The notes below the pieces were generated by a model. That model worked only from the letters and a program-made list of their open reading frames with translations. It searched no databases and was not told where the DNA came from. A stretch of DNA of 64,000 nt from a virus, in IMG/VR virus record IMGVR_UViG_3300042987_002978, positions 1 through 64,000 of that record; one strand, given 5' to 3'. The position numbers were made by a program, and so were the translations under genes. This document shows positions 32,339-38,400 of this stretch, one piece after another (position 1 is the stretch's first letter; each line of letters opens with the position of its first letter).

Positions 32339-32509
32339 TTACAATTCCAACTCGCCACCGTCAGCAACGTTTTGCTGCTGTTTTTGGGATTGGGGCTGGA
32401 CTCGCATTGCCTGGATTGTGGCTTTGAGTATGGCATTTTCACGGGTCAAATTGGCGATTTGCAAAGTTAGTTCACCAATTACGACATTGACATCTGGCTG
32501 TTGGTTCAT
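32339..32509 (-). CDS. small coiled-coil protein (56 aa, not in ORF track)
   Basis: MNQQPDVNVVIGELTLQIANLTRENAILKA. Confidence 0.6.
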   Translation of the reverse strand: MNQQPDVNVVIGELTLQIANLTRENAILKATIQAMRVQPQSQKQQQNVADGGELEL

Positions 32510-33483
32510 ACTCTAAGCATACACCTAGCCACGTGTCTTCTGACCGCTCTCCTGTCTTTCATATGATTAAAAATATCGATATATCTGAATTCCACATCAA
32601 CCACGGATTTGATGTCATCCTCAAACGGATACCAATAATCCGGATGTATTGTAATACCAATAAACTTAGTCCCGCGTTTGCAAAACAAGCCGTTGTAAAA
32701 TCCGGTTCCGAGTATTCCGGCGACGTGGGTAGCAGAAGCAAAAAGTCCTATTTGTTCGTCCATTGGCATGCCAGACGGCTGAATTATTGAATAGCCGTTT
32801 TCAATAAAAACACTTTCTATTTCTTCTTCAACCCAGTCCTCGTTGTAACGCAGGCGCCTTTGTTCTTTTAACCAGTCGCTGTTAACGGGATGCTCAAACT
32901 TCCATTCATCTAGTTGTTTGCTAACAACCCGACGAGATATAAAAATCTTTTCTTGCTTTTTCTCCGGGTATTTTGCCTTTTCCAAGAACATGTATCGCAA
33001 TTCATTGTTTAGGCCCGGAGTTTTCGTATAGTCCTTAAACTTGTCTTGATAGTCGGCAAGGATTTGCTGCCCATCAAACACGACGACAAGACGCTCTATT
33101 ATGTAGCAAGACTTGTTGAATGAATATACGTCTATGTTCCCAGCACAGTCTTTTTTTATGAAAGACTCTGTCCATTCGCATACGTCGCACATTTGTTGGT
33201 GTTTCGGGTATACATAAGCATAATTTTCAACCCATAGATATTTTGCCGAGTGGTCATATGTGTGTTTGTAGTGAAGAAAAGACGCAAAGTATTCTTTTAA
33301 GTAGTGAAAATAGTGCGGCGTACACGTGATTATTAAATTGGTTCCGTTGAAGCATTGAATATCATCGCTTTCGACGTTCCCAATCACAACATTTTCATAA
33401 ACCCTTATGTAATTGTTTTCGTCATCAATGATTTTGTATGAATCGTACCCAATAGGCCACTTGAACCTAGCGTGGTCATCCAT
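32506..33483 (-). CDS. glycosyltransferase family 61 (DUF563)-like
   Basis: HYFHY, KIFISR, R.NE...E..F...GY, EQI.LF..A..VAG..G.G..N.LF. Confidence 0.75.
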   Translation of the reverse strand: MDDHARFKWPIGYDSYKIIDDENNYIRVYENVVIGNVESDDIQCFNGTNLIITCTPHYFHYLKEYFASFLHYKHTYDHSAKYLWVENYAYVYPKHQQMCDVCEWTESFIKKDCAGNIDVYSFNKSCYIIERLVVVFDGQQILADYQDKFKDYTKTPGLNNELRYMFLEKAKYPEKKQEKIFISRRVVSKQLDEWKFEHPVNSDWLKEQRRLRYNEDWVEEEIESVFIENGYSIIQPSGMPMDEQIGLFASATHVAGILGTGFYNGLFCKRGTKFIGITIHPDYWYPFEDDIKSVVDVEFRYIDIFNHMKDRRAVRRHVARCMLRV

Positions 33484-35453: not shown

Positions 35454-35486
35454 ATAATCATCCTACCTTTTCGTTAATGGCTGTTC

Positions 35487-38400
35487 TTAACATGCTGGGC
35501 CGCCAAATGGGCCGGCAACACACGCTCCGGCGTACGGACCGCACACTTCGTTCACGAACAGGAACTCGGTGCATGTCTCGTTTCCACTTGGGGGAGTCAC
35601 TGGCGGCGTAACGGGCGGCGTCACCGGCGGCGTCACAGGGGGTGTCACCGGGGGTGTCACCGGTGGTGTCACCGGCGGCGTCACCGGGGGCGTCACCGGG
35701 GGCGTCACCGGGGGTGTCACCGGGGGTGTCACCGGGGGTGTCACAGGAGGAGTCACCGGGGGAGTCACAGGCGGTGTGTAAATGCCATAGCAGTCATTGG
35801 GAGCATTCTGGAACGGCGACAAACAATAACCTTGGCAACAACAAATTTCGTTTACATACAAGAACTCTGTGCAAAGTTGACCGTCATTGACCGGGGGAGT
35901 CACAGGGGTTACTGGCGTCACCGGAGTCACCGGAGTAACCGGAGAACACGTTGCTCCGAGCCCGCCAGCAATGCACTCACCTACGTAGTTGCACTGTTCT
36001 GAAGCATATTGCTGCGGTGTGCATGCACCATACGACACTGGAGTCACCGGCGTCACTGGCGTCACTGGCGTTACCGGTGTCACGGGGGTCACCGGTGTTA
36101 CGGGAGTTACGGGAGTTACGGGAGTTACGGGAGTTACTGGGCTACCGCTTGAGCCGCATCCGGCAATGCAATACTTGATGTAATTGTTTGCGCCGTACAT
36201 GTATGCATATAACGTTCCTTGTGGAGAGCCAGTTGTATCTGTGGCATCAAACCAAAAAGAAATAGCCCAGGGCGCGCCTCCCAAACCCTCTTCGACCGCA
36301 TGCGGTCTCCAGTAATAAATACCTTTTGAATCTGTGCTTGTCGTACTTGCCGGGTCGCGCACTTCTATGTTTTGAATAAGCGCTTCGCCATTGCCAATCA
36401 AAATTCCTGCTGCTGAAATTTCTCCAGTCCCAGAATTCGCATTCGGGTCGAACACCATTGGTATTCCGCCAGTGTTTGATTGCAGTTGTCCGGATGCAAG
36501 AATTTCCCAATCGCCTATAAATCCTTCTGTTGCAGAAACAATACCGGTTATATCTGCGTTATCAGCAACAAGATTTCCGGCATTGTCAACTGAAAAACTT
36601 GAGCCAATGGTAAGAGAACCACCAGTTATGTCAATATTTGATGCAGTTACCGCACCGGTATTGTCTACATAAAAATCTGAACCGATTGATATTGTGCCAC
36701 CAGTGATATTGCCGGAAAATTCGCCTGCTATAGCAGTTACGTATCCACCAGAAGTTACAGAAAACGGAGCAGTTGATAATGACGCAGAACCCAACCACAT
36801 ATTTCCGGATGAATCAACGTGAAATGATGTATTGTCTGAACCGCCGATGTCAATGGTTGAACCGACGATTTGTCCGGCAAAATAACCGTCAATCGTATAA
36901 AAATCACCCGTACTTGCGCTTACCTGAGTTACCAAATCTCCAGCATTGTTGTATGCGTAAAGACCAGAGGAGTCTATTACCAATCTTGGATTGCTAGTTC
37001 CAGTCTGCAGTGTCGGAGCCGTTAAGGTGCCTTGAATCCACGCACCGTTTCGAATTATGACTTGGTTCAATTCTGAGTTGCCGTCTGCCTCAATGGTCCA
37101 TCCGCTGACATTTTGTACGTAGTTGTTAGAACGAATCGCGCCGTTCAAGACTATTTGCGCGCTCGCAGAAGCAGTGAACGGGAACGGGTCTGACGGAACT
37201 CCGGACTGACCGTTGACCGTGTACGGAATGACTGTGAAGTTATATTGTCGGCCAGGAGCACCAAGATTCTCAAATGCCGCTGATGTTTGGTTTGCTGGCA
37301 CTGTCGCTGAGTGTCGTTCGATTACGCGCACCACGTCGCCAGAGGTATGGGTTCCGATTGGGATGTCGGGTCCGACGTCGTCAAAAGTGAACGAGGACCC
37401 GGAAGCGCTCGTCAAGAAAACGTTCGTACGGTCAAAATACGCGCTTGCCGTATCATAAATGTTTATCCAGTCACCGACGCCAAATCCGGTTGAGGAACTG
37501 ACCTCAACGTATGCGATGTTGCCGTCGCGATAAATGTTTGTGATTGGATAGGTGATTGCGATTCCGACGGAGTCTTGTTCTTCTCGGTATACAACGGCCT
37601 CGTATTGGACGGCGCTGGTGTTGTCTGCAGGTTCCCAACCGACAACTACTCGGTTGCTTAAGCCTTGTACTTCCGCCCCAACCGAAGTTCCGGTCGGCTT
37701 GAGGGGCTTTGAGGAAGTACCGCGGAGGGTAAACGTCGGCACATCAGCAGCGGACAAACGACCGTAATTTGCCGCGTATTTGAGGTTCGTCGCAATGTCG
37801 GCGAAGATATCGCCAAATGTGACCTCGACCGTCTCGTTACCTGTTTCGTCTACCGCAACACCGATTGCGCTGATTATGCGTTCGCTGAACGTCCCAGTGT
37901 CAATCTCCACCAATACTTTGTCGCCGATGTCAAAGTCAAACCACGCCAGCATTTCATCGCGTTCCGTGAACTGTGCCGTAATCTGTAGTTTTCCGTCTTT
38001 GACTTGCCGCACCGCAGAGGCGGTGATGTTTGCGACGGCTGGCGCATCATCGGAGGTGTTCTCGACGAACATCTCCCTGAATCCGTAAGTTCCTGTTCTT
38101 TCTGAAATTTGACGGTCGAGATTGAACCCGTCAGAACCGTATACGACCGTTCGCAGTTCCGCCACGGATGTTCTCGTCTCAACCGACGACAACATTGGCA
38201 GACTGAACAAGAGGGCGGCAGAACCAGAAGTCAAATCATTGCCGAATGGCTCGTCAAAAACAATTGTGTCCGTCACAAAAGGACGGACCGCAATGCTTAT
38301 TACTCCGAGCGGAGAAACGTGCCAATCCACTCCAGTATTGGCAGAGACTTCGTTCAAAACATCAAGCATCGTCCTACCTACGGCGATGTTGAAGTTCCCA

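What the first reader, a model, noticed from the sequence alone, without database searches (positions are those of the whole stretch)
32506..36200. Tail-tip protein ends in three Cys-rich mini-domains on PVT/PPVT stalks, followed by its own putative maturation cassette
Seen: cores [28 protein letters not shown] and [13 protein letters not shown] are separated by (PVT)n/(PPVT)n. Directly downstream are an accessory protein, a CxxC/CxxCxC protein, a prolyl-hydroxylase-like 2OG oxygenase and a GT61, in a visibly AT-richer segment. Inference: an exchangeable receptor-binding module that is post-translationally matured (Cys bridging or metal loading, Pro hydroxylation, Thr/Hyp glycosylation), reminiscent of extensins or RiPP logic on a virion protein.
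Basis: partly seen in the sequence, partly recalled or inferred. Interest (0 to 1): 0.75.

Follow-up and report, generated by a model that had tools for sequence, protein, structure and literature searches.

The report
Phage fibre stalks with proline-hydroxylase kit
An uncultured freshwater phage ends its tail-tip protein in proline-rich stalks carrying small cysteine-knotted knobs, and encodes next to it a virus-only enzyme kit that most likely hydroxylates the stalk prolines and adds sugars to them, much as plants do to cell-wall proteins, a chemistry not described for bacterial viruses.

Summary
The 1329-aa protein in the tail-tip position ends in (PVT)11, (PVT)5 and (PPVT)15 stalks separating three Cys-rich knobs. 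Downstream lie a 134-aa protein, a six-Cys DUF6171 protein, a 2OG oxygenase and a GT61.

The oxygenase has two domains. Its C-terminal half is a prolyl-hydroxylase-type domain (Z 16-20 to solved prolyl hydroxylases) with an invariant HxD...H...R site. Its N-terminal half is a second oxygenase-like domain.

Comparative genomics ties the kit to the substrate:
- Of 92 viral loci with DUF6171, 88 have a Pro-rich stalk protein directly upstream, whatever the carrier.
- Of 40 contigs with PPVT repeats plus a Cys-rich end, 39 carry the kit. Of 40 with PPVT repeats alone, 3 do.
- Among loci found through DUF6171 itself, the oxygenase tracks the stalk, not the Cys knob.
- In relatives the oxygenase is fused to a hydroxyproline O-arabinosyltransferase (HPAT) domain, or sits beside a PF11397 glycosyltransferase. 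GT61 occupies that slot in this phage.

Best reading (about 0.6): stalk prolines are hydroxylated, then glycosylated, giving stiff, protected stalks that present swappable disulfide knobs. The role of DUF6171 is unresolved, and nothing has been shown biochemically. I found no description of this in the searchable literature. I class it as a new variant of known kinds.

The parts
36207..39476 (-). Body (residues 1-1090) of the 1329-aa protein in the tail-tip (Tal) position, directly after the tape measure and Dit genes.
   Evidence: Gene order. phrog_110 minor tail protein, E 3.5e-9. Sipho_Gp37 scores 25.7 bits, just under its 26.2 cut-off. Relatives L004, L026 and L043 are 54-65% identical.
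36042..36140 (-). Stalk 1, (PVT)11.
   Evidence: 11 identical peptide units in 8 DNA spellings.
35946..36023 (-). Knob 1, residues 1152-1177, four Cys spaced C-x9-C-x5-C-x8-C.
   Evidence: The same spacing family occurs in L008, L011 and L029 on other carriers.
35898..35942 (-). Stalk 2, (PVT)5.
35790..35873 (-). Knob 2, residues 1202-1229, six Cys.
   Evidence: Close copies occur in L004 and in L013/L026.
35595..35774 (-). Stalk 3, (PPVT)15.
   Evidence: 15 identical peptide units in 11 DNA spellings.
35490..35573 (-). Knob 3, residues 1302-1329, four Cys, at the very C-terminus. The segment 35455-35588 is replaced by other sequence in related populations.
   Evidence: table 5: joints 35454 to 35589 with 158 other letters between (runs X5, X7), and 35454 to 35608 with 141 letters between (X10).
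35049..35453 (-). 134-aa accessory protein of unknown family. It occurs only in a subset of cassettes; other loci carry a GNAT-like protein in this place.
   Evidence: No hit in Pfam, PHROGs or the Atlas. Homologues at 31-62% identity in L004, L011, L013, L026 and L039, and a weaker one (29%, E 4e-4) in L043. GNAT-like alternatives.
34817..35080 (-). DUF6171 protein, 87 aa, six invariant Cys, ending in CP-x-G-K-W. It is the gene most tightly linked to the carrier.
   Evidence: PF19668 E 1.7e-8. Invariant residues. Directly upstream of the oxygenase in nearly all loci. AlphaFold2 (AF2) model pLDDT 83, no solved fold match.
34223..34774 (-). Oxygenase N-domain (residues about 13-196): a second double-stranded beta-helix (DSBH), 2OG-oxygenase-like domain with invariant H108, D110 and H154. 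It is a separate gene in many relatives.
   Evidence: Invariants. VIA-align Z 13-13.7 to AviO1, EvdMO1, ALKBH7 and AsqJ. Stand-alone forms.
33479..34081 (-). Oxygenase C-domain (residues about 244-444): prolyl-hydroxylase-type 2OG/Fe(II) oxygenase with H371, D373, H424 and R434.
   Evidence: PF13640. PDB profile hits are led by prolyl hydroxylases (best: B. anthracis P4H, E 2e-7). Foldseek. VIA Z 20.2, 19.8, 17.2, 16.8 and 16.2.
32506..33483 (-). GT61-family glycosyltransferase, 325 aa, an optional member of the cassette.
   Evidence: PF04577 E 2.1e-13. GT61 in 19 of 61 distinct cassettes, at varying positions. Absent from the closest relatives L004 and L026, where the oxygenase is followed directly by the 56-aa gene.

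Best explanation
The C-terminus of the tail-tip protein is a beads-on-a-string receptor-binding appendage. Three proline-rich stalks of about 36, 19 and 65 residues would span roughly 11, 6 and 20 nm if they form polyproline-II helices. Each stalk presents a small knob held together by disulfides.

The genes that follow are a dedicated, virus-only tailoring kit, probably co-transcribed with the tail genes.

1. In the infected cell the C-domain of the oxygenase uses O2, 2-oxoglutarate and Fe(II) to hydroxylate prolines in the PV/PPV units of the stalks.
2. GT61 then adds sugar to the new hydroxyproline, or to the neighbouring Thr. In other phages a PF11397 or HPAT-type transferase does this step.
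3. The second oxygenase-like domain adds a further, unknown oxidation, to the stalk or to the glycan.
4. DUF6171 is a small Cys-rich partner that comes with the carrier gene. It either docks the enzymes onto the carrier or helps the Cys-rich tip to mature.

The result would be stiff, extended, protease-resistant stalks. Knobs can be exchanged by recombination within the stalk repeats.

Shown here: gene content, catalytic residues, folds, co-occurrence statistics, domain fusions and knob replacement in populations. Inferred: every chemical step, the substrate residues, disulfide formation and receptor binding.
For: (1) Enzyme identity. The C-domain matches prolyl hydroxylases by sequence profile (B. 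anthracis P4H E 2e-7, then PKHD-type hydroxylases, P3H1, PBCV-1 P4H and PHD2). It also matches them by structure: Trichoplax PHD Z 20.2, P. putida P4H 19.8, Dictyostelium Skp1 prolyl hydroxylase 17.2, PBCV-1 16.8, Chlamydomonas P4H 16.2. H371, D373 and H424 are invariant and R434 is at least 90% conserved across 30 homologues at 35-77% identity.

(2) Link to the substrate. Of 92 viral loci with DUF6171, 88 have a Pro-rich stalk ORF within 3 kb upstream on the same strand. Two of the four exceptions are cut by a contig end. Carriers differ: 1100-1330-aa tip proteins, about 500-aa proteins, and about 200-aa FN3 proteins next to head genes.

(3) Reverse test. Of 80 contigs found through (PPVT)>=4 alone, 39 of the 40 with at least 4 Cys after the last repeat carry DUF6171 plus oxygenase. 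Only 3 of the 40 without do.

(4) Dissociation test on loci found through DUF6171 itself. Among Cys-tailed carriers, an oxygenase is present in 14 of 15 to 17 of 21 with a stalk, and in 2 of 8 to 5 of 14 without, depending on the Pro threshold (Fisher p 0.002-0.009). Over all carriers p is about 1e-4.

(5) Hydroxyproline-type transferases. Oxygenase homologues P0023 and P0073 carry an N-terminal HPAT domain (PF23452, E 2.8e-9 and 8.9e-7, above the cut-off). PF11397 transferases sit in or beside the cassette (E 1.8e-17 and 3.9e-29). The HPAT locus has a stalk with almost no Ser or Thr (T+S 0.05-0.08), so hydroxyproline would be the only available acceptor.

(6) GT61 sits at different positions in different lineages and is absent from the closest relatives. 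This points to repeated recruitment.

(7) Terminal knobs have 4, 6, 8 or 10 Cys in 57 of 61 distinct proteins (p about 2e-13).

(8) Knob 3 is replaced in other populations while the kit stays 98-99% identical.

(9) No two-domain relative was found in 185,579 prokaryote species genomes.
Against: - No chemistry has been measured.
- PPVT repeats occur widely in phage proteins without the kit (37 of 40 without a Cys end). So the repeat alone does not call for hydroxylation.
- About half of DUF6171 loci lack any recognisable oxygenase or glycosyltransferase.
- 33 of 61 distinct cassettes show no recognised glycosyltransferase within the DNA held, so glycosylation is optional.
- GT61 is not known to act on hydroxyproline. 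From my own knowledge, its characterised members act on Ser or Thr of EGF domains, on O-mannose, or on glycans.
- For the one characterised viral P4H (PBCV-1), hydroxyproline could not be detected in virions (PMC7019647).
- The reading of PF11397 as the Skp1 hydroxyproline GlcNAc-transferase family rests on my recollection of the Pfam entry. (PMC3515798) shows only that Gnt1 acts on hydroxylated Skp1.
Confidence: 0.6

Rival explanations
1. The kit matures the Cys-rich knobs rather than the stalks. The oxygenases would hydroxylate knob residues (a knob Pro, Asn or Asp, as aspartyl/asparaginyl hydroxylase does on EGF domains). GT61 would glycosylate Ser or Thr inside the folded knob, as EOGT does on EGF domains. 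DUF6171 would load metal or help the disulfides form.
For: - The kit goes with PPVT repeats only when a Cys-rich end is present (39 of 40 against 3 of 40).
- DUF6171 also accompanies Cys-rich proteins without stalks. One example is a second copy in this window at 60390-60554, beside the Cys-rich 138-aa protein at 60915-61331.
- From my own knowledge, GT61 includes EOGT, which acts on small disulfide domains.
- The knobs contain Pro, Asn and Thr.
Against: - Knob sequences fall into many unrelated patterns, while the enzymes stay 43-58% identical (one homologue 35%) in lineages with other knob types.
- Cys-tailed carriers without stalks mostly lack the oxygenase.
- The nearest structures are prolyl hydroxylases, not aspartyl hydroxylases.
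- The HPAT and PF11397 families point to hydroxyproline. The HPAT locus has a stalk almost free of Ser and Thr.
Confidence: 0.2
2. The kit is a host-directed moron that merely sits at a common insertion site after the tail genes. The oxygenase would hydroxylate a host protein (EF-Tu, as P. putida P4H does, or a ribosomal protein, as Tpa1/OGFOD1 do). GT61 would modify host glycans.
For: - The cassette is AT-richer than its surroundings in 70 of 73 loci, as is typical of mobile add-on genes.
- Structural neighbours include the EF-Tu hydroxylase and the two-domain Tpa1/OGFOD1.
- Phage 2OG oxygenases are commonly listed as auxiliary metabolic genes (PHROG labels).
Against: - The kit follows the stalk-knob gene into quite different genome contexts, including FN3 carriers beside head genes.
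- The two-way co-occurrence statistics are hard to explain by insertion-site preference alone.
- The genes overlap or abut the structural genes and each other.
Confidence: 0.08
3. The stalks are ordinary unmodified Pro/Thr linkers. The oxygenase and GT61 act on DNA, RNA or a small molecule, for example AlkB/TET-like base oxidation or glycan tailoring of a secondary metabolite.
For: - One PHROG match of the C-domain is labelled DNA endonuclease (phrog_2297), and one JGI record names a homologue AlkB.
- The N-domain's nearest folds (AviO1, EvdO2, HygX) act on sugar-containing antibiotics, and ALKBH7 is also near.
Against: - AlkB, TET and FTO score Z 12-13 for the C-domain, well below the prolyl hydroxylases at Z 16-20.
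- No nucleic-acid-binding domain was found.
- This reading does not explain the tight linkage to stalk proteins.
Confidence: 0.04

Closest known systems
Plant hydroxyproline-rich cell-wall glycoproteins (extensins, proline-rich proteins) with their P4H and HPAT enzymes
   Same: - Long proline-rich repeats likely to form extended polyproline-II rods.
- A P4H-type oxygenase: Chlamydomonas P4H, which takes a (Ser-Pro)5 peptide, matches at Z 16.2.
- In relatives, an HPAT-family domain fused to the oxygenase.
- From my own knowledge, the PPV unit recalls the Pro-Hyp-Val-Tyr-Lys repeats of plant proline-rich proteins.
   Different: - The repeats are [15 protein letters not shown] and PVS, not Ser-Pro(3-5).
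- The substrate is a phage virion protein made in a bacterial cytoplasm, not in a secretory pathway.
- This window has GT61 rather than HPAT.
- A second oxygenase-like domain and DUF6171 have no plant counterpart.
- HPATs are described as plant-specific (PMC4738400).
Skp1 prolyl hydroxylation and glycosylation pathway of Dictyostelium and Toxoplasma (PhyA, then Gnt1)
   Same: - A cytoplasmic P4H followed by a transferase acting on the hydroxyproline (PMC3515798).
- Dictyostelium PhyA is among the best structural matches (Z 17.2).
- PF11397-family transferases sit in the cassette of relatives.
   Different: - That pathway modifies one proline of one regulatory protein as an oxygen sensor. Here dozens of repeat prolines of a structural protein would be targets.
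- The window itself has GT61, not PF11397.
Prolyl 4-hydroxylase of chlorella virus PBCV-1 (vCPH)
   Same: - A virus-encoded P4H (5c5t, Z 16.8).
- It hydroxylates proline-rich repeat peptides in a sequence-specific way in vitro (Eriksson et al. 1999, as cited in PMC7019647).
   Different: - It belongs to a virus of eukaryotic algae and is a single domain.
- It has no linked substrate gene and no DUF6171.
- Its in vivo role is unknown, and hydroxyproline was not found in virions.
- In the phage system the candidate substrate is encoded next door.
Virion glycosylation by phage-encoded glycosyltransferases in mycobacteriophages (Freeman et al. 2023, cited in PMC12801897)
   Same: Phage glycosyltransferases decorate the phage's own structural proteins inside the infected cell.
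   Different: From my own knowledge, in those phages the sugars go onto Ser/Thr-rich C-terminal extensions of capsid and tail-tube proteins, with no oxygenase step. Here a prolyl-hydroxylase-type enzyme is the constant member, and the transferase is optional and varies in family.
Pro/Thr linkers joining carbohydrate-binding modules in secreted glycoside hydrolases
   Same: The stalk-and-small-disulfide-domain architecture. From my own knowledge, such linkers are O-glycosylated in some organisms.
   Different: - No carbohydrate-binding module family was detected in the knobs.
- Those linkers have no dedicated hydroxylase.

Membership tests
Prolyl-hydroxylase-type 2OG/Fe(II) oxygenases (PF13640; P4H/PHD clade) | Family profile match above the curated cut-off. 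| tested here: met
   PF13640 scores 45.6 bits against a cut-off of 27, over residues 358-441.
Prolyl-hydroxylase-type 2OG/Fe(II) oxygenases (PF13640; P4H/PHD clade) | Double-stranded beta-helix fold whose nearest solved structures are peptidyl-prolyl hydroxylases. | tested here: met
   AF2 model with pLDDT 88. VIA Z 20.2 (rmsd 2.5, 183 aligned), 19.8, 17.2, 16.8, 16.4 and 16.2, all prolyl hydroxylases. Foldseek agrees.
Prolyl-hydroxylase-type 2OG/Fe(II) oxygenases (PF13640; P4H/PHD clade) | HxD...H iron-binding triad, plus a basic residue about 10 residues after the distal His to hold 2-oxoglutarate. | tested here: met
   H371, D373 and H424 are invariant and R434 is at least 90% conserved in 30 homologues.
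Prolyl-hydroxylase-type 2OG/Fe(II) oxygenases (PF13640; P4H/PHD clade) | Hydroxylation of peptidyl proline. | not testable with these tools
   Needs an enzyme assay or mass spectrometry.
Glycosyltransferase family 61 (PF04577) | Family profile match above the curated cut-off. | tested here: met
   51.1 bits against 27, over residues 58-275. No solved relative by sequence.
Glycosyltransferase family 61 (PF04577) | Donor sugar and acceptor (hydroxyproline, Thr or glycan). | not testable with these tools
   Not predictable from sequence. Characterised GT61 members have diverse acceptors (my own knowledge).
HPAT, hydroxyproline O-arabinosyltransferase family (PF23452) | HPAT domain present in this system. 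| tested here: not met
   Not present in the window. Present only in relatives, as an N-terminal fusion to the oxygenase: P0023 at 37.2 bits and P0073 at 29.0 bits against a cut-off of 23.9. It supports the mechanism, not membership of this window's genes.
DUF6171 (PF19668) | Family profile match above the curated cut-off. | tested here: met
   35.2 bits against 27. Six Cys are invariant in 46 sequences. 9,488 cluster representatives at E <= 1e-3.
Extensin-type hydroxyproline-rich glycoproteins | Ser-Pro(3-5) repeat motif. | tested here: not met
   The repeats are PVT and PPVT, with no Ser-Pro(3-5) run. The likeness is functional analogy only.
Extensin-type hydroxyproline-rich glycoproteins | Hydroxyproline and hydroxyproline-O-glycans in the mature protein. 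| not testable with these tools
   Needs virion proteomics or glycoproteomics.
RiPP-like maturation (precursor with leader, recognition element, tailoring enzymes) | A recognised RiPP recognition element or leader/core layout with release of a peptide. | tested here: inconclusive
   No PqqD-like or other recognition-element family was found in the cassette proteins. The modified part stays on a 1329-aa protein. DUF6171 occurs stand-alone or fused to tailoring enzymes: a PF11397 transferase in P0187 and a borderline sulfotransferase in P0161. That pattern is adaptor-like, but binding is untested.
Siphovirus tail-tip protein (Tal / Gp37-like) | Position after tape measure and Dit, and a tip-protein domain. 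| tested here: inconclusive
   Position met. Sipho_Gp37 scores 25.7 bits, just below its 26.2 cut-off. phrog_110 minor tail protein has E 3.5e-9.

The most novel reading that the evidence does not exclude
Tailed phages of fresh waters make hydroxyproline-glycoprotein fibres. A virus-restricted kit converts Pro-Val-rich stalks on tail or head appendages into hydroxylated, often glycosylated rods that display swappable disulfide knobs. The kit consists of DUF6171, a prolyl-hydroxylase domain, a second oxygenase, and interchangeable transferases that include the HPAT family thought to be plant-specific.

This would be the first hydroxyproline O-glycosylation system in viruses of bacteria. It would assign a function and a substrate to one large group of the phage 2OG-Fe(II) oxygenases now filed as auxiliary metabolic genes.
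Probability: 0.5. Interest if true: 0.85.

Novelty: new variant of a known kind. Interest (0 to 1): 0.8.

Why it matters
- Phage 2OG-Fe(II) oxygenases are abundant in aquatic viromes and are usually filed as metabolic add-ons of unknown role. For this subfamily the likely substrate is encoded in the neighbouring gene, so the function can be tested directly by co-expression and mass spectrometry.

- If confirmed, proline hydroxylation and hydroxyproline glycosylation would extend to bacterial viruses. These are hallmarks of plant walls, collagen and protist oxygen sensing. HPAT-family enzymes would also be shown outside plants.

- It would reveal a widespread modular design for host recognition (carrier, stiff modified stalk, swappable disulfide knob). 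That is relevant to host-range prediction from metagenomes. At least 589 IMG/VR contigs carry DUF6171, and the family has 9,488 cluster representatives.

- The modification needs O2, so fibre maturation could depend on oxygen. That is an ecological hypothesis worth testing.

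Tried and rejected
Contexts came from the search for related loci and the DNA search instead.
- No near DNA match among 50,697 phage records.
- The tail protein's only hit in isolated phages is a 16% stretch in a Pelagibacter phage. No cultured relative or host could therefore be named. "Actinobacterial host" comes only from earlier notes, which I did not test.
- Single-protein locus searches for the oxygenase and GT61 found little or nothing. The alignment-based search worked.
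- A sequence profile of the oxygenase N-domain found nothing in the PDB. Only the structural search placed it.
- DUF6171: no paper mentions it. There was no Foldseek match, and the best VIA Z was 2.7. The word-based search for longer fused forms found none, but the exhaustive search did find a few.
- The 134-aa accessory protein has no family, no Atlas neighbour, and only a weak match (E 0.046, 30 residues) to the 113-aa protein of the second module.
- The Cys-rich knobs match no Pfam family.
- GT61 has no solved relative by sequence. Neither does the PF11397 transferase.
- Promoter-like and terminator-like sites in 32000-36000 do not exceed shuffled controls.
- No RNA holder was listed among the sequencing runs, so nothing can be said about expression.
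- DUF6171 loci without stalks show no recognisable tailoring enzyme downstream. The idea that DUF6171 always recruits enzymes is therefore not supported.
- Stalk Thr/Ser content does not separate GT61 loci from loci without a transferase.
- Literature searches for phage prolyl hydroxylase or hydroxyproline with tail proteins found no description of this system.

Full report
**What is in the window**

The window is part of a 104.8-kb IMG/VR virus record. On the minus strand it carries, in order:
- a tape-measure gene, 40354-45288;
- a Dit-like gene, 39476-40348;
- a 1329-aa protein, 35487-39476;
- a 134-aa gene, 35049-35453;
- an 87-aa DUF6171 gene, 34817-35080;
- a 444-aa 2OG oxygenase, 33476-34810;
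- a GT61 glycosyltransferase, 32506-33483.

The genes abut or overlap by a few bases. Nothing promoter-like or terminator-like stands out between them. They are probably transcribed together with the tail genes, but that is an inference.

The last 227 residues of the 1329-aa protein contain all 16 of its Cys. They read CIAGC, (PVT)11, a four-Cys knob, (PVT)5, a six-Cys knob, (PPVT)15, and a four-Cys knob that ends the protein. The chance of all Cys falling there is about 5e-13.

At the DNA level the repeats are only 80-88% regular. The 31 peptide-identical units are spelled in 24 ways, and every difference is synonymous. So the exact peptide repeat is maintained by selection.

DUF6171, the oxygenase and GT61 have GC 0.40-0.42, against 0.50-0.55 around them. 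In relatives the same cassette is AT-richer than the rest of the locus in 70 of 73 cases.

**What the enzymes are**

The oxygenase family is large and conserved: 94 full-length homologues were listed, almost all unnamed. An AlphaFold2 model built on 30 of them is confident (pLDDT 88, pTM 0.85) and shows two domains.

- Residues about 244-444 are a prolyl-hydroxylase-type domain. The profile search of solved structures is led by prolyl hydroxylases (best: B. anthracis P4H, E 2e-7; also P3H1, PBCV-1 P4H and PHD2), together with the PKHD-type hydroxylases PiuC and Sbal_3634.
- The exhaustive structural search ranks Trichoplax PHD (Z 20.2), P. putida P4H (19.8), the Dictyostelium Skp1 prolyl hydroxylase (17.2), PBCV-1 P4H (16.8), PHD2 (16.4) and Chlamydomonas P4H (16.2) above all other oxygenases. 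Foldseek agrees.
- H371, D373 and H424 are invariant and R434 is nearly so. The site looks competent.
- Residues about 13-196 are a second double-stranded beta-helix domain with invariant H108, D110 and H154. Sequence profiles find nothing for it in the PDB. Structurally it sits among 2OG oxygenases such as AviO1, EvdMO1, ALKBH7 and AsqJ (Z 13-13.7).
- In many other phages the two domains are separate genes, sometimes joined by a further paralogue of each type. They are therefore independent units.

GT61 is a clear Pfam member. DUF6171 is a small protein with six invariant Cys and a fixed C-terminal CP-x-G-K-W. Its model is fairly confident (pLDDT 83) but matches no solved fold.

**Is the kit tied to the stalk-knob protein? 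Three searches from three starting points**

1. Starting from the oxygenase, 49 viral loci were found. DUF6171 lies directly upstream of the oxygenase in nearly all of them. The next gene upstream almost always ends in PPVT, PPVV, PVTA, PVS or similar repeats, followed by Cys-rich segments. The carriers differ. They include homologues of this tail-tip protein (L004, L026, L043), proteins of about 440-540 aa after other minor tail genes (L007, L008, L011), and about 200-aa proteins made of one FN3 domain, a stalk and a knob, close to the major head gene (L015 and many others).

2. Starting from DNA that encodes (PPVT)>=4, 117 loci were found. Of the 80 with enough downstream sequence, 39 of the 40 with at least four Cys after the last repeat carry DUF6171 plus an oxygenase. 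Only 3 of the 40 without do. The single exception in the first group looks like a wrong-frame ORF.

3. Starting from DUF6171 itself (at least 589 IMG/VR contigs encode it), an oxygenase is present in most loci whose carrier has a Pro-rich stalk and in few whose carrier lacks one. Among Cys-tailed carriers the counts are 14 of 15 to 17 of 21 with a stalk, against 2 of 8 to 5 of 14 without (p 0.002-0.009). Over all carriers p is about 1e-4.

Pooling searches 1 and 2, 88 of 92 DUF6171 loci have a stalk ORF within 3 kb upstream. These give 61 distinct stalk proteins.

The pattern is that DUF6171 goes with the carrier gene, and the oxygenase goes with the stalk. This window gives its own example. 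A second, shorter DUF6171 copy lies at 60390-60554 (E 4e-19). It sits two genes after a Cys-rich 138-aa protein that has no stalk, and no two-domain oxygenase is beside it. I confirmed the DUF6171 copy, but found only a weak likeness between the two other small partner proteins.

**Why hydroxyproline, and why sugars**

The strongest clue comes from the variable slot of the cassette.

- In L035/L036 the oxygenase is fused to an N-terminal HPAT domain, the hydroxyproline O-arabinosyltransferase family (PF23452). P0023 scores E 2.8e-9 and P0073 E 8.9e-7, both above the cut-off. That family is described as plant-specific and adds arabinose to hydroxyproline of extensins (PMC4738400).
- In L008, L039, L047, L048, L057 and L154, a PF11397 transferase lies in or next to the cassette (E down to 3.9e-29). 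As I recall the Pfam entry, PF11397 is the family of Gnt1, the enzyme that puts GlcNAc on hydroxylated Skp1. documents that reaction for Gnt1 but not the Pfam assignment.
- In this window and 18 other distinct cassettes the slot holds GT61.
- GT61 sits after the oxygenase here, between DUF6171 and the oxygenase in L027, L038 and L043, and on the opposite strand in L014. It is absent from the closest relatives L004 and L026. So it was recruited more than once.
- The stalk of the HPAT locus is almost free of Ser and Thr (T+S 0.05-0.08). Without prior hydroxylation it would offer no hydroxyl group for a sugar.
- The one element common to all stalk types is Pro-Val, which I take as the likely recognition unit. 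That is an inference.
- L154 adds a carbamoyltransferase and a cupin protein to the cassette. This window has a carbamoyltransferase, two GT4-like genes and three weak oxygenase-like ORFs at 54-60 kb. These hint at further elaboration of a glycan, but I did not follow this up.

**The knobs**

- They match no Pfam family and fall into many sequence patterns.
- The terminal knob has 4, 6, 8 or 10 Cys in 57 of 61 distinct proteins (p about 2e-13). This is what intramolecular disulfides would require. In a bacterial cytoplasm such bonds would form only late or after lysis, which is an inference.
- This window's C-x9-C-x5/6-C-x8-10-C type recurs on three carrier types.
- In metagenomes from other studies (aquaculture, reservoir) the cassette is 98-99% identical. 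The segment 35455-35588, which holds knob 3, is replaced there by 141-158 other bases, with the joint inside the PPVT repeat (tables 5 and 8).
- These are assembled contigs across a repeat, so the replacement needs long-read confirmation. It is nevertheless what module swapping by recombination in the stalk would look like.

**DUF6171**

The family is large (9,488 cluster representatives at E <= 1e-3). The nearest Atlas clusters are almost wholly viral.

A few members are fused to a PF11397 transferase (P0187) or to a borderline sulfotransferase (P0161), or occur as tandem copies. That pattern resembles an adaptor that can be stand-alone or built into tailoring enzymes.

About half of DUF6171 loci, however, show no recognisable enzyme nearby. 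That fits a role in maturing or assembling the carrier's tip. I cannot decide between the two.

**Comparison with what is known**

- Viral P4H is known from PBCV-1. Its natural substrate is unknown, and hydroxyproline was not found in virions (PMC7019647).
- Phage-encoded virion glycosylation is known from mycobacteriophages (Freeman et al. 2023, cited).
- Proline hydroxylation followed by hydroxyproline glycosylation is known from plants and from Skp1 in protists.
- I found no paper that joins these in a bacterial virus, mentions DUF6171, or links phage 2OG oxygenases to Pro-rich fibre stalks.
- One cyanomyovirus paper reports an Ofd1-like prolyl dihydroxylase in a virion proteome without assigning it a role (PMC12801897).
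- No two-domain relative of the oxygenase was found in one genome for each of 185,579 prokaryote species. No cultured phage is close.
- The DNA occurs in freshwater, reservoir and aquaculture metagenomes.

**Verdict**

Within it, proline hydroxylation followed by optional glycosylation is the best-supported chemistry (about 0.6). The role of the Cys-rich partner protein is open, and nothing has been shown at the bench. I rate it a new variant of known kinds, of high interest because it can be tested directly.

Noticed in passing
window 60390-60554 (-), with 60915-61331 (-), 60551-60865 (-), 60026-60367 (-): A second, shorter DUF6171 paralogue (54 aa, all six Cys, ends CPIGKW; E 4e-19). It lies two genes downstream of a Cys-rich 138-aa protein that has no Pro-rich stalk. 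No two-domain oxygenase is adjacent. The 113-aa neighbour resembles the 134-aa accessory protein only weakly (E 0.046).
   Followed up: partly
window 54208-60016: An AT-richer island. It holds two GT4-like glycosyltransferases (54208-55467, 55317-56423), a NodU/CmcH-type carbamoyltransferase (58310-60016, +), and three small ORFs with weak, sub-threshold 2OG-oxygenase matches (56473-57096, 57071-57676, 57628-58302). It may be a second tailoring set.
   Followed up: partly
window 50926-54159 (-): A 1077-aa protein with a hydrophobic N-terminus, a C-type lectin domain (E 6e-5), long poly-Thr and Glu/Pro-rich linkers, and hydrophobic segments near the C-terminus.
   Followed up: no
window 20701-21282 (+): Another small ORF (193 aa) with a weak match to the prolyl-hydroxylase-type domain of the oxygenase profile (E 4.9e-5), in the early region.
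   Followed up: no
L064, L070, L081, L113, L128, L133, L139: Split cassettes. The two oxygenase domains are separate genes of about 190 and 230 aa. They are accompanied by a second N-type paralogue (about 186 aa) and in some loci by a third P4H-like paralogue (about 186 aa), giving up to four oxygenase-like genes behind one stalk protein.
   Followed up: partly
L154:1-5371: A cassette reading FN3-stalk-knob, DUF6171, PF11397 transferase, a 306-aa unknown, a carbamoyltransferase-like 474-aa protein, a cupin protein, then a P4H-type oxygenase.
   Followed up: partly
P0161, P0187, P0143, P0164: DUF6171 fused to a borderline sulfotransferase domain (P0161) and to a PF11397 transferase (P0187). P0143 and P0164 carry three DUF6171-matching stretches each.
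   Followed up: partly
L262, L265, L316: Other stalk chemistries before Cys-rich knobs and DUF6171: aromatic FFGPP- or PFFPFF-type repeats, without any detected oxygenase.
   Followed up: no
L268, L290, L304, L306, L311, L324: A family of 440-620-aa fibre-like proteins. They end in a conserved Cys-rich domain (motif CKSYDVTN ... DGSR..C) and are followed by DUF6171, but have no Pro-rich stalk and no oxygenase. In L304, Mtd_N and FN3 fibre proteins lie downstream.
   Followed up: partly
L007, L031, L043, L045, L052: A GNAT-like protein of about 160-175 aa (weak Pfam matches in the three scanned, L007, L043 and L045; L031 and L052 by similarity to these) sits between the carrier and DUF6171, where this window has the 134-aa protein. 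L045/L046 are the only loci with DUF6171 plus oxygenase but no stalk protein upstream.
   Followed up: no
window 46732-47613 (-): A VanY-type peptidase with a peptidoglycan-binding domain (a likely endolysin), encoded about 1.4 kb upstream of the tape-measure gene, with two small genes (46085-46642, 45453-46001) between them.
   Followed up: no
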